From a virus (Duplodnaviria; Heunggongvirae; Uroviricota; Caudoviricetes), in IMG/VR virus record IMGVR_UViG_2778261559_000026: 31,691 nt of DNA; one strand, 5' to 3'. Every line of letters starts with the position of its first letter. Positions within the stretch are counted from its first letter, which is position 1. Below are positions 24,901 through 27,900 of this stretch, one piece after another. The position numbers are program-made.

Positions 24901-27900
24901 TCAGTTTCTCTTCCAGATAATTCCAACGGTCAACCAGTTGGCGAGTAAATTCCGGTACGTTTTGAGCAATCAAGACAATCGAATCTAAGCGACCTTGCTC
25001 ACCCTCAAACACATAATCTTTAACAGTAACAGCAAACCCTAAGTTATTGATTTTCTCGAAATTCTGCGTTGCAGGTTTTCGGATAACTTGGCGTTCAACC
25101 AGTCGGTTCATAGAAGTTTCAAGGTTTGAAAAACGAACTCCAATAAGGTCGGCAATTTCACGAAGAGTCATTTTTGCAACTTCGTTATCAACAACCAGAG
25201 ACACGGAAGCAGTTTTAACAGCAGTATTCATAGTAGTAACAGTATTCATAGTAGTAATTCCCCTTAAACGGTTTTGCGATAATGATATTGATCCTCCTAG
25301 TTCCGGCAGCATCACCGGAACAATTTTATTTATAAGAAGTTTTTATCTCATTTAGATTCAGCAATCGCGCGATCAATTTCTTCTTGAATGCGACGCTGGC
25401 GTTCATGGAAGTCAACCATTGAGAAATTCAGGTTTGGGGTCCACGGTTTGCGGTTCGGGTTTTTGCGTCCATCAATTTTCTTAGTAGTGTTCATAATTAA
25501 CATCCTCTTTACAGTTCTAGGTCAAATATGATCAAGGTTGTCAAGTGCGATGATCATAAAAAAGTAAGAAATTTTTGTCAATACACCTTGACAAGACACC
25601 AAAGGGTTGACCTAACTTACAGAATATCTAAGCCTTCATCGTAACCGTAGAAGCCATTCTGAGAAGAGAAACAGATTGGTGCGTAGTCGTCGTCATCTTC
25701 GTCTTGTTCATCTTCTTCTGGGGCTTCCTGAGCGGTTTCTTTACCGTAGTTAAACATTGCTTCATCCAGTTCATAGACAGTAACGAAGCTACCCAGGTCA
25801 ATGTCACCGGAACGGACTTCAAACGGAAGATCATCACGAACAATAATTGCTGGTAGATTCTGGTACTTTAAGCGTTCTTCATCGGTGAAGACGTTAACAA
25901 CAATGGTCGGCTTCTTATTACGGTGGAAGGCATACCATGCACTAGAGAAATGAGATTCATCAGAGTTGAAAAGAATGTTGTGACCACGTTCACGGAACAT
26001 CTTCATTAACTTGTCATTGTGGAAGCTATCAGCATCAAAACCTAACAGGATGAAAGGAGTAGTGGTAGTCATTTTATGGTTCATAGTGGAAATCCTCTAA
26101 AAGAAAGTGAATCAATCTAATATTATTTATAAAGAGAAAATTCTTGTTATTATGAAAGGTGATTGTATTCAGTCGGGCAAAGCCCTCCTTCATGATTTGA
26201 TTAAATCATCATCAAAACGAAGAAGTATCTTTAGAATATAAGAATCTTTCTTTTGGAGAAATAATAATCAGGAAGCAATTTAGCAACCGAAGGTTGCAAT
26301 CCCGAAGGGATACCAATACCTTTCTAGAAAGTGATTGTTACTCACTTCGTTCGTTTACTAGAATCAGTTAGTAACTAGTATTAAATCCCTTTCTAAGAAA
26401 ATCCTTTCAAAAGTGATTCTCGATGCCACGCAGTGGCGTCGCAGACGTTTGAGAGTGAGCGAAGCGAGCGAGCAAACTAGTTAATTCCTTCTAAGACCAT
26501 CTAGTATCATCTAGTTTAAATTAGTTGTTACTAGAAGTAATTGGTTAGCGCTTCGCGCAGTCGGGCAAAGCCCTCCTAATATCTTTTTGGTTATTTTTGG
26601 TTTTACACATGAGCGTAGCGAATGTGTTATATAATATCTATGCACGCCGAATCCCCCGCCCTTACCCCTACCTAATTTAATGTTTTATAAAGAGTTTTTC
26701 TCACCAATCCTTTTCGGGGGAAAATTTCAGGGGCAAAAATTAGATTTTCAGGGGCAATTATTGGCATTTCAGGGGCAAAAATGAGGGGCAAAATCACTGT
26801 TTCCCAGAAATTTCAGGGGCAAAAATAGTAGGTTTCAGGGGCAAAAATAGGATAGTAGAATCTTGGGATTTTGTTCGGGGGCAATTCCCATCAAATATTT
26901 TGATAGAAAATTATTGTATATTATTTAACCACAAAATCACCAAAAAGTGGTTTAAGCTAATGATTTAAAAGGAATAATCAAAAGGTCTCCGTGCCATAAT
27001 AGGTTATAAAGGTTGATAATCCTAATCTACCATTTTCAAACAAAAATTTTGATAGTCACCTCTCGCTTAGATCATGTGTGTTGACATGTGTCAAGAACTA
27101 TTTTATGCTTTTTATCACTGGTAAGGGTTGAAATTTTCAAAACAATCCCCATATAGATGATAAGCATGATTTTTTCGTGTATAAATACATGCATGAAAAA
27201 TGATTGTTCACTTCTGAAAATCTCCTGACTCACTGTTAACTCATACAGCACTGGTTAGATATGCAGTGCTTTTTTCGGTTGAATATTGTACGGATTGATT
27301 AATTATTAATCTTCTCTTTAGCAATTCGTGCTCCCACTGATCGGATATACAGTGGTTTTGCAGGGTTTTTCGAAAAACATTTTATAAATAGAATTGTTCA
27401 GAGCGAAAAGCTCTTTTTTAAGATTTTTTAAACCTAACAATGAGGGATTAAAAATGGCTAAACCTGTACGATTCACACGAGAAGTATTACTCCCGATTGC
27501 TAAACGTTATTTTGAAGCGATGCAGGGTGACAAGCTGGCGGTTTTGAAGGAAGAAGGGATTGACCCCTCTGATTTTAGAAAACTGCTAAAACGATATGAC
27601 ATTAAAGTGAAGATTGAAGCTACCGTTTGGTAATCAACTTTGACTGAGAATTATATGATGGCTTTAAAAATAAAAAAGCCCCCTTGCGGCAACAAGGAGG
27701 CTTTTGCGATGAACAATTAAAACTAACTTTCCACAGGAGTATTTATAATGTTATTTTCCGCTAACTTTTTCACTAACGAAGTAACCAACGCTAAAGCAGT
27801 TATCAAATTTGGCACCGAAGCAAACAAGAAGATTCAGCCGAAAGTTGTTGCTCATGTTTCCTTTGCGCAGCAGAAATCCGCTTTCGCTGGCTTTAAAGCA

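What the first reader, a model, noticed from the sequence alone, without database searches (positions are those of the whole stretch)
26580..26890. 21-bp-phased TTCAGGGGCAA iterons next to an AT-rich T-tract region: candidate origin
Six to seven direct copies of TTCAGGGGCAA(AAAT), mostly spaced by exactly 21 bp (two helical turns), follow an AT-rich stretch with phased T tracts (TTTTTGGTTATTTTTGGTTTT). This is the classic layout of an iteron-type replication origin or a multi-site regulator binding array, yet no recognisable initiator gene is adjacent.
Basis: partly seen in the sequence, partly recalled or inferred. Interest (0 to 1): 0.65.

Follow-up and report, generated by a model that had tools for sequence, protein, structure and literature searches.

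The report
Swappable iteron array with matching prophage protein
A cluster of eight same-direction DNA repeats in a small E. coli prophage is almost certainly the docking site of an uncharacterised protein encoded about 0.9 kb downstream, because repeat type and protein type always change together in related prophages; it is most likely the phage's replication origin, but that is not proven.

Summary
The repeats are real. TTCAGGGGCAA occurs five times exactly, once with one mismatch and twice with two mismatches. All copies are on the + strand within 26713-26884 and occur nowhere else in the window (0.45 expected by chance).

The window is a ~30-kb, 41% GC siphovirus-like E. coli prophage inserted at hicB. 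It has no recognisable replication gene. The array lies in a 1.3-kb non-coding gap between divergent early operons.

In related prophages the same slot carries different arrays: A (TTCAGGGGCAA), B (AGTGTAGGTTT) and C (ACGGGGA). The 313-340-aa protein encoded downstream (here p318, 27748-28704) has a matching, mutually unalignable N-terminal domain. The pairing held in 29 of 29 IMG/VR loci chosen without reference to it, and in 33 of 33 complete E. coli genomes. The promoter segment and the small gene between array and protein reshuffle freely. A 48%-identical protein from another host pairs with a variant repeat, GAGGGGCAAAAAT.

p318 has no Pfam, PHROG, NCBIfam, PDB or fold match.

Best reading: a specificity module made of an iteron array and its cognate binding protein. 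It is most likely an origin and initiator that also regulates its own operon (about 0.5). The main rival is a purely regulatory array.

The parts
26713..26884 (+). Type-A iteron array. It has eight same-orientation copies of TTCAGGGGCAA, starting at 26713 (2 mismatches), 26726, 26747, 26768, 26781 (2 mismatches), 26812, 26834 and 26874 (1 mismatch). Most copies are followed by an A-tract (AAAAT).
   Evidence: Copy number varies from 5 to 9 by gain or loss of whole units in relatives.
26417..26888 (.). Swappable cassette. This stretch is replaced in type-B and type-C relatives, which resume similarity at 26889/26890. Its left ~150 bp keeps short motif-level similarity to type B, while the part from about 26560 onward is type-specific.
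   Evidence: BLAST breakpoints at query positions 417 and 890. L018 shows AGTGTAGGTTT repeats in the same slot. L032 shows ACGGGGA repeats. Alignment.
26889..26928 (.). An 88% AT segment that directly abuts the last repeat. It contains the palindrome ATCAAATATTTTGAT. It is the candidate unwinding element and/or a regulatory site.
   Evidence: It is the third least stable 40-mer of the whole window. It is conserved next to A, B and C arrays in P1-type loci but absent in P2 and P3 loci.
26583..26604 (+). It overlaps a relaxed DnaA-box match, TTTTACACA, at about 26601.
   Evidence: The stretch is not unusually unstable. It is part of the type-A cassette only.
26283..26620 (.). Cluster of short G+C hairpins with C-GNA-G triloops, including GCGAAGC, GCGTAGC and CCGAAGG mini-hairpin motifs. 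They are possible single-strand initiation signals or a structured RNA.
   Evidence: Five of the eight such hairpins with a stem of at least 4 bp in the window lie here. Folding as ssDNA gives z = -4.8 and -4.6 for the two strands. Relatives keep hairpins at these positions with different sequences. Such motifs occur at the G4 origin and at RSF1010 ssiA (PMC13037366).
27081..27109 (+). Promoter-like site TTGACA-17-TATGCT with the palindrome TTGACATGTGTCAA over the -35. It reads toward p79 and p318. Terminator-like hairpins follow at 27248-27275 and 27400-27414.
   Evidence: The same promoter lies about 25 bp after the last repeat in L042.
27454..27633 (+). p79/p59, a small conserved protein of 59 aa from the ATG. 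It is the first gene of the operon and a paralogue of the ORF at 23855-24112. It is not the specificity partner of the array.
   Evidence: Its three classes (S1-S3) occur with any array type.
27748..28704 (+). p318, the candidate array-binding protein. It has a type-specific beta-rich N-domain (about residues 1-170), a coiled coil carrying a 63-bp internal duplication, an acidic linker and a short C-terminal tail.
   Evidence: Present in all type-A loci and absent from all others. AF2 secondary structure. No family or fold match.

Best explanation
**What it is.** The array is the type-specific DNA target of p318 (27748-28704). Together they form an exchangeable recognition module in the early region of a ~30-kb temperate E. 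coli siphophage.

**Proposed mechanism (inferred).**
- p318 binds the in-phase repeats through its beta-rich N-terminal domain.
- It oligomerises through its coiled coil.
- This assembly opens adjacent AT-rich DNA and recruits host replication proteins through its C-terminal tail.
- The array would therefore be the phage's replication origin.
- Because the array sits just upstream of the promoter of the p79-p318 operon, the same binding probably also autoregulates that operon, as in iteron plasmids.

**Shown.** The repeats exist. The array cassette and the protein N-domain are swapped in strict concert, while the DNA between them recombines freely.

**Inferred.** Physical binding, origin firing and autoregulation.
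For: **1. The repeats are non-random and unique to this site**.

**2. Three unrelated arrays occupy the same slot.** These are A (TTCAGGGGCAA), B (AGTGTAGGTTT) and C (ACGGGGA, about 16-18 copies around an AT-rich spacer). All sit upstream of the promoter of the small/big gene pair.

**3. The downstream protein has three matching N-domain types.** They share a common architecture but are only 22-25% identical to each other.

**4. The pairing is perfect in every set examined.**
- 24 of 24 unique loci.
- 29 of 29 loci selected only by the small protein: 15 A, 12 B, 2 C.
- The 33 complete E. coli genomes with the A array are exactly the 33 with a full-length A N-domain, located 1.1-1.4 kb downstream.
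- The B N-domain occurs in 18 other genomes. One genome, UTME-9, carries both types at different sites.

**5. The DNA between array and protein reshuffles.**
- Promoter segments: A with P1 in 3 loci, A with P2 in 13, B with P1 in 7, B with P3 in 1, C with P1.
- Small-protein classes: S2 occurs with A, B and C arrays.
- The pairing therefore survives recombination, which argues for co-selection rather than simple linkage.

**6. Graded covariation.** P0123 is 48% identical to p318 and comes from a separate public assembly whose host was not identified. It pairs with seven GAGGGGCAAAAAT repeats, which share the core but differ in the 5' flank. They are split 4+3 by an AT-rich spacer. That locus also has three perfect DnaA boxes, against 0.10 expected, next to the big gene.

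**7. Origin-like context.**
- The whole element lies between ydcR and hicB, and no recognisable replication gene was found among the ORFs scanned.
- An 88% AT segment abuts the array.
- Repeat spacing is in phase with the DNA helix.
- A cluster of GNA-triloop mini-hairpins of the kind found at G4 and RSF1010 priming sites lies 100-400 bp to the left.
- Four of the C-terminal tail variants end in -AA. From my own knowledge, this resembles a ClpXP-type degradation signal of the kind common in initiators.
Against: - There is no direct evidence of binding or replication.
- The window has no DnaA-box enrichment and no IHF consensus site.
- The AT-rich flank is missing in P2 and P3 relatives, where a strong promoter abuts the array instead.
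- Repeat cores are not significantly better conserved than spacers across 15 type-A arrays (6 of 77 versus 14 of 107 variable columns, p = 0.34).
- The element encodes no helicase, primase or loader.
- The position in a divergent early intergenic region fits a transcriptional switch equally well.
- The fourth type, D (L055), has a different layout with two candidate repeat sets, so it does not add a clean test.
Confidence: 0.5

Rival explanations
1. The array is purely regulatory. p318 would be a transcription factor (repressor, activator or switch protein) that binds the repeats to control the p79-p318 operon and/or the divergent p155-p51-Rha operon. It would define immunity or regulatory specificity types among related prophages and have no role in replication.
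For: - The array lies in the 1.3-kb gap between divergent early operons.
- In most relatives it directly abuts a near-consensus sigma-70 promoter reading into the small/big operon.
- In the P2 segment, B-type repeats even lie within the promoter spacer.
- In L042 the last repeat is about 25 bp from the promoter.
- Discrete specificity types are typical of immunity regions.
- No classical repressor was recognised in the element.
- Prophages of types A and B coexist in one genome, UTME-9.
Against: - Six to nine same-orientation sites with two-turn phasing are atypical for operators, which are usually few and palindromic.
- In the window the array ends about 200 bp upstream of the best promoter-like site.
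- The element would then have no candidate origin or initiator at all.
- One genome carries two type-A copies. This is weak evidence, because prophages with the same immunity can coexist.
Confidence: 0.27
2. The array is a centromere-like partition site or a DNA-packaging recognition site, with p318 acting as an adaptor analogous to ParR/ParG or to a cosB/pac-binding protein.
For: - In-phase direct repeats upstream of the operon that encodes their binding protein resemble R1 parC/ParR (own knowledge).
- The region lies between the TerS-like gene (29415-29969) and TerL (21256-23163).
Against: - The element has no ParA, ParM or TubZ-type NTPase.
- All 36 A-type and 18 B-type copies in complete genomes are chromosomal; none is on a plasmid.
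- The TerS-like protein does not co-vary with array type: it is 91-96% identical between A and B loci.
- p318 shows no similarity to RHH, ParB or terminase proteins.
Confidence: 0.08
3. The repeats have no function. They would be a slippage-generated tandem repeat or a common host repetitive element, and the association with p318 would be simple linkage by descent.
For: - The whole array, spacers included, is highly conserved, so the cores show no significant extra constraint.
- Unit number varies, as expected from slippage.
Against: - Three unrelated arrays occupy the same position.
- The pairing with the N-domain is perfect despite demonstrable recombination in between.
- A related core is retained with a 48%-identical protein in a more distantly related prophage from a separate public assembly.
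- The array is absent from E. coli genomes outside this prophage.
- The only other IMG/VR hits to the repeat pair are two unrelated coding repeats.
Confidence: 0.05

Closest known systems
Iteron-controlled theta replicons (pSC101 RepA, P1 RepA/oriR, F RepE, R6K pi)
   Same: Several same-orientation repeats are spaced about two helical turns apart. They lie next to AT-rich DNA and immediately upstream of the operon that encodes the specific binding protein. Repeat number is variable, and different specificity types exist.
   Different: - The partner protein has no Rep_3/winged-helix signature or fold.
- The conserved unit is about 16 bp rather than 19-22 bp.
- There are no DnaA boxes in the window.
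- The element is an integrated prophage, not a plasmid.
Lambdoid ori/O-protein specificity modules (lambda, phi80, P22 gene 18)
   Same: A type-specific N-terminal DNA-binding domain is joined to a more exchangeable C-terminal part. Iterons match the N-domain type, and modules are exchanged among related temperate phages of enterobacteria.
   Different: - In lambdoid phages the iterons lie inside the O gene, whereas here they are intergenic and 0.9 kb upstream.
- There is no P-like or DnaB/DnaC-like partner gene.
- There is no sequence or fold similarity.
RSF1010 oriV (iterons, AT-rich segment, and ssiA/ssiB hairpins)
   Same: Direct repeats occur alongside a nearby set of stable hairpins containing the CCGAAGG mini-hairpin motif. 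That motif is described at ssiA in PMC13037366. The window has CCGAAGG twice, at 26283-26311.
   Different: RSF1010 needs its own RepA helicase, RepB' primase and RepC initiator, and none of these is present here. The hairpins here have not been tested and could instead belong to an RNA.
R1 parC/ParR and related type II/Ib centromeres
   Same: In-phase short direct repeats lie upstream of the operon encoding their binding protein, which oligomerises on the array.
   Different: There is no partition NTPase. The binding protein is large, with a beta-rich domain and a coiled coil, not a small RHH protein. The element is chromosomal.

Membership tests
Iteron-type replication origin (plasmid or phage theta replicon) | Cluster of at least 3 same-orientation repeats with roughly helical-repeat phasing | tested here: met
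   Eight copies, all on the + strand. Spacings between exact copies are 21, 21, 44, 22 and 40 bp.
Iteron-type replication origin (plasmid or phage theta replicon) | Adjacent easily melted AT-rich region (DNA unwinding element) | tested here: inconclusive
   26889-26928 is 88% AT, abuts the array and ranks third least stable in the window. It is absent in P2 and P3 relatives. The T-tract on the left is not unusual.
Iteron-type replication origin (plasmid or phage theta replicon) | Host-factor sites (DnaA boxes, IHF sites) near the iterons | tested here: not met
   No exact DnaA box occurs in the window. One-mismatch matches equal chance expectation (8 found, 8.2 expected). There is no IHF consensus site. 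Only the distant relative L042 has three perfect DnaA boxes.
Iteron-type replication origin (plasmid or phage theta replicon) | Cognate initiator encoded next to the iterons, with matching specificity | tested here: inconclusive
   A co-varying adjacent protein exists. It belongs to no known initiator family and has no known initiator fold.
Iteron-type replication origin (plasmid or phage theta replicon) | Supports autonomous, initiator-dependent replication | not testable with these tools
   This needs cloning and replication assays or marker-frequency data.
Lambda-type ori/O module | Iterons located inside the initiator gene, with a partner helicase-loader gene downstream | tested here: not met
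   The array is intergenic. The genes after p318 are two small membrane ORFs and a TerS-like gene on the opposite strand.
SaPI/PICI-type ori with Rep helicase/primase | Primase/helicase Rep gene next to the iterons | tested here: not met
   No helicase or primase domain was found in any of the ORFs scanned, which cover the main ORFs of the element.
Partition centromere (parC/parS type) | Partition NTPase (ParA, ParM or TubZ) encoded in the same operon | tested here: not met
   No such domain was found in the element.
cosB/pac terminase recognition site | Specificity co-varies with the small terminase subunit | tested here: not met
   The TerS-like protein is 91-96% identical between type-A and type-B loci.
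Host repetitive element (REP/ERIC-like) | Dispersed copies across the host genome | tested here: not met
   The array cassette is found in only 33 of 5,426 complete E. coli genomes. In each it lies 1.1-1.4 kb upstream of the full-length type-A N-domain gene of this prophage.

The most novel reading that the evidence does not exclude
p318 and its type-B, C and D counterparts would be a previously unrecognised family of phage replication initiators. They combine a beta-rich, type-specific DNA-binding domain, a coiled coil and an exchangeable C-terminal tail. They would fire interchangeable iteron origins in a minimal E. coli temperate phage that carries no other replication gene. The neighbouring GNA-triloop hairpin cluster would serve as priming signals.
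Probability: 0.4. Interest if true: 0.65.

Novelty: new variant of a known kind. Interest (0 to 1): 0.55.

Why it matters
This prophage family is present in about 1% of complete E. coli genomes: 33 genomes carry type A and 18 carry type B, out of 5,426. All its early genes are annotated 'hypothetical', and it has no identifiable replication, repressor or lysis gene.

The array and N-domain covariation gives the first concrete functional handle on the element. It predicts a DNA target for an orphan protein family. It also predicts which residues (about 1-170) carry the specificity. Natural A, B and C swaps provide ready-made controls.

If p318 is an initiator, it would add a new fold to the known set of origin-binding proteins. 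It would also offer three or more orthogonal origin/initiator pairs that work in E. coli. If p318 is a regulator, it would define a new kind of immunity determinant.

Tried and rejected
- **Rfam.** No family matched at gathering thresholds for the whole window. The E-value mode on 25900-27700 gave only chance-level hits.
- **Megablast of 26000-27500** against PLSDB plasmids and INPHARED phages found nothing. tblastn of the p318 N-domain against both also found nothing.
- **Genome-contig scans** with TerL and with the small-protein profile found no relative. The species-representative genomes evidently lack the element.
- **Protein family and structure searches for p318.** Pfam, PHROGs and NCBIfam gave only coiled-coil noise. 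PDB sequence-profile searches gave coiled-coil matches or nothing.
- **AF2 modelling.** The single-sequence run failed (pLDDT 43). The 7-sequence run gave pLDDT 54.
- **A second homologous-protein search** with the N-domain profile returned only near-identical type-A proteins and added no diversity.
- **Core versus spacer conservation test** was not significant.
- **DnaA, IHF and GATC scans** of the intergenic region in five locus types found nothing conserved.
- **Small protein p79 as specificity partner** was rejected. Its classes occur with any array type and any promoter type.
- **TerS as partner** was rejected.
- **Two IMG/VR hits to the repeat pair** (L008, L014) are unrelated coding repeats, not counter-examples.
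- **Complementary target for the 20-nt direct repeat.** None was found within 3 mismatches.
- **Literature search** for a described prophage at hicB with a serine recombinase found nothing relevant.
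Full report
**The observation**

Reading 26200-27300, the repeat finders and a pattern search confirm a one-strand cluster of TTCAGGGGCAA.
- Five copies are exact: 26726, 26747, 26768, 26812 and 26834.
- One copy has one mismatch (26874).
- Two copies have two mismatches (26713 and 26781).
- There is no other copy in the 31.7-kb window. Chance expectation is 0.45 matches, and 0 of 100 shuffles reached six.
- The conserved unit is about TTTCAGGGGCAAAAAT.
- Start-to-start spacings are 13, 21, 21, 13, 31, 22 and 40 bp. 'Mostly exactly 21' is therefore overstated, although the exact copies stay close to multiples of 10.5 bp.

Its best 40-mer ranks 486th of 31,651. The least stable DNA near the array is 26889-26928 (88% AT, rank 3 in the window), which directly abuts the last repeat on the right.

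**What the window is**

ORF listing and profile scans show these genes:
- a large serine integrase (2537-3949);
- tail, tape-measure, tail-fibre, fused protease/capsid and portal genes;
- a gpA-type large terminase (21256-23163, - strand);
- a 6-kb early region;
- a TerS-like gene (29415-29969).

Homologues of p318 are all from Escherichia and Shigella. In complete genomes the element is chromosomal. In the strain examined it sits against a truncated hicB.

In the window the left flank (1-822) is a GntR/aminotransferase gene, ydcR-like by my own knowledge of K-12 gene order. The right flank is hicB. The whole ~30-kb element is therefore inside the window.

Its GC content is about 41%. No cultured phage is close: the best TerL match is 43% identical. 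No helicase, primase, loader, known initiator, CI-like repressor or endolysin was recognised.

The array lies in a 1.3-kb non-coding gap (26085-27453). This gap separates a leftward operon (p155, p51 and a Rha-like protein) from a rightward operon (p79/59 aa, then p318).

**Comparative evidence, the core result**

Scans of IMG/VR with the repeat pair and with TerL returned 39 loci. BLAST of 26000-27500 against them shows sharp mosaic breakpoints. Many relatives match 26000-26416 and 26889-27419 but not 26417-26888.

The same slot carries different arrays in different relatives:
- In L018 and others it holds 7-9 copies of AGTGTAGGTTT (type B).
- In L032 it holds about 16-18 copies of ACGGGGA in two clusters around an AT-rich spacer (type C).

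The protein encoded after the small gene has matching types:
- A is p318, 313-319 aa.
- B is 328-341 aa.
- C is 333-337 aa.
- All share one architecture: a beta-rich N-domain of about 170 aa, a coiled coil, an acidic linker and a short tail.
- Their N-domains are only 22-25% identical to one another.

Array type equals N-domain type in every set examined:
- 24 of 24 unique loci.
- 29 of 29 loci chosen only by the small protein: 15 A, 12 B, 2 C.
- In 5,426 complete E. coli genomes, the 33 genomes with the A cassette are exactly the 33 with a full-length A N-domain. The cassette always lies 1.1-1.4 kb upstream of the gene.
- The 18 genomes with a B N-domain lack the A array. The exception is UTME-9, which carries both elements at different sites.

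The DNA between array and protein gene is itself reshuffled:
- Three promoter-segment types occur: A with P1 (3 loci), A with P2 (13), B with P1 (7), B with P3 (1), and C with P1.
- Three small-protein classes occur, and S2 is found with A, B and C arrays.
- The C-terminal tails of the big protein also shuffle independently of the N-domain.

The pairing therefore survives recombination, which argues for functional co-selection.

A more distant relative gives graded covariation. P0123 is 48% identical to p318 and comes from a Logan assembly of a different host. It sits behind seven GAGGGGCAAAAAT repeats, which share the core but differ in the 5' flank. The TerS-like protein and the small protein do not co-vary with array type.

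A fourth type, D (L055, 377 aa), is 32% identical to the A N-domain. It has a rearranged locus with two candidate repeat sets. One is a GTTCAAATGCTAC array with 21/21/43/54-bp spacing. This locus neither supports nor contradicts the rule cleanly.

**What p318 is**

The family is tiny: 13 hits among 1.8 billion cluster representatives. All relatives found lie in this prophage context. It is absent from the plasmid and phage collections.

Pfam, PHROGs, NCBIfam and PDB sequence searches give only coiled-coil noise. AF2 with seven sequences gives a moderately confident beta-rich N-domain (pLDDT 60-80 over residues 20-150; overall 54).

**Function**

The data establish a specificity module of a site array and a cognate protein. 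They do not establish what the module does.

The origin reading fits best for these reasons:
- The element must replicate if it is a functional phage, and it has no other candidate origin or initiator.
- The repeats are same-orientation and in helical phase. They abut very AT-rich DNA in the window and in the B and C relatives that share the P1 segment.
- Type C and the L042 array have AT-rich spacers inside the array.
- L042 has three perfect DnaA boxes beside the big gene, against 0.10 expected.
- The DNA 100-400 bp to the left holds a significant cluster of C-GNA-G triloop hairpins (5 of 8 in the window; z about -4.7). Relatives keep hairpins there with different sequences.
- These hairpins include GCGAAGC, GCGTAGC and CCGAAGG mini-hairpin motifs, which a recent review places at the G4 complementary-strand origin and RSF1010 ssiA (PMC13037366).

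Several points count against the origin reading:
- The window has no DnaA-box or IHF signal.
- P2 and P3 relatives have a strong promoter instead of AT-rich DNA next to the array.
- Repeat cores are not significantly more conserved than spacers.
- The location equally suits a transcriptional switch.

I therefore put about 0.5 on 'origin plus initiator, probably also autoregulatory'. I put about 0.27 on 'regulatory only'. Small weights go to a partition or packaging role and to non-function.

**Comparison with known systems**

The module works like an iteron/Rep pair or like the lambda ori/O specificity module, but it fails membership tests for both:
- It has no Rep or O family signature or fold.
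- Its iterons do not lie inside the initiator gene.
- It has no loader gene.
- The window has no DnaA boxes.

It also fails the tests for ParR/parC (no NTPase) and for cosB/TerS (no covariation). It is best described as a new variant of a known kind: an iteron-like array served by an unclassified protein family.

**Verdict**

- Interest is moderate to good (0.55). The covariation is unusually clean, the partner protein is an orphan fold, and natural A, B and C swaps make the hypothesis directly testable.

Noticed in passing
window 26283-26620: A dense cluster of short G+C hairpins with C-GNA-G triloops. Examples are GCAACCGAAGGTTGC, ATCCCGAAGGGAT, GCCACGCAGTGGC, CGTCGCAGACG, GCGAAGC, GCGCGAAGCGC (- strand) and GCGTAGC. 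Relatives keep hairpins at the same places with different stems and loops. They could be single-strand priming signals or a structured RNA. There is no Rfam match.
   Followed up: partly
window 26170-26189 and 26558-26577: An exact 20-nt direct repeat, CAGTCGGGCAAAGCCCTCCT, occurs 388 bp apart. Each copy is a small hairpin followed by an anti-Shine-Dalgarno-like CCTCCT. Loop and stem vary in relatives (AAA, TAA, TTCG, TAC) while the hairpin is kept. No complementary target was found within 3 mismatches.
   Followed up: partly
L001, L003, L007 and other P2-type loci, just right of their type-A arrays: Most type-A loci carry two or three type-B repeats (AGTGTAGG). These lie immediately after the A array and inside the spacer of a near-consensus promoter (TTGACActgtgtaggatcggtgcTATAAT). 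This could allow cross-regulation by a type-B protein, or it could be a relic of an array swap.
   Followed up: no
L042 9692-9859: Three perfect, same-orientation DnaA boxes (TTATCCACA) lie with AT-rich repeats in a 325-bp insert between the small and big genes. This is seen only in this distant relative, and no other fetched locus has even one.
   Followed up: partly
window 28346-28470 (inside p318): A 63-bp tandem duplication (2.0 copies, 96% identical) encodes a repeated LEEKDQIIEAQKAEIE(K/E)LKA heptad segment. It accounts for the length differences between alleles (313 versus 318/319 aa).
   Followed up: no
C-termini of the big proteins (L017, L018, L032, L066, P0123, P0128): Four different tail types end in -AA (YAYAA, RKAA, LKAA, DFAA). 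One allele has an expanded YA repeat (YAYAYAYAYAYAA). This may be a C-terminal degradation tag. The window's own allele ends in SYCQ.
   Followed up: no
window 27081-27453: The leader between the promoter-like site (27081-27109) and p79 contains two terminator-like hairpins (27248-27275 and 27400-27414). A further hairpin lies between p79 and p318 (27674-27705). This suggests attenuation or antitermination control of the operon.
   Followed up: no
window 21256-23163 and 29415-29969: The TerS-like gene is separated from the gpA-type TerL by the whole 6-kb early region. This is unlike lambda's adjacent Nu1-A arrangement. The cos site was not located.
   Followed up: no
window 23855-24112 and 27454-27633: The small protein p79 has a paralogue (42% identity, E = 1e-11) next to the divergently transcribed 200-aa ORF beside TerL. 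Neither matches a known family.
   Followed up: partly
window 6050-6823: A homing-endonuclease-like ORF (phrog_314, E = 4e-25) sits among the tail genes.
   Followed up: no
window 16414-16504: ARAGORN calls a 91-nt tRNA-Glu (anticodon ttc) on the + strand, inside a - strand ORF (16269-16772). It is unusually long and may be a false positive.
   Followed up: no
whole element, about 1.0-31.3 kb: The GC content is about 41%, against about 51% for E. coli (own knowledge). No lysis enzyme, repressor or replication gene was recognised. Together these suggest recent acquisition from a lower-GC enterobacterial lineage and a largely uncharted gene set. The related element in E275a carries IS2 and IS421 insertions.
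   Followed up: no
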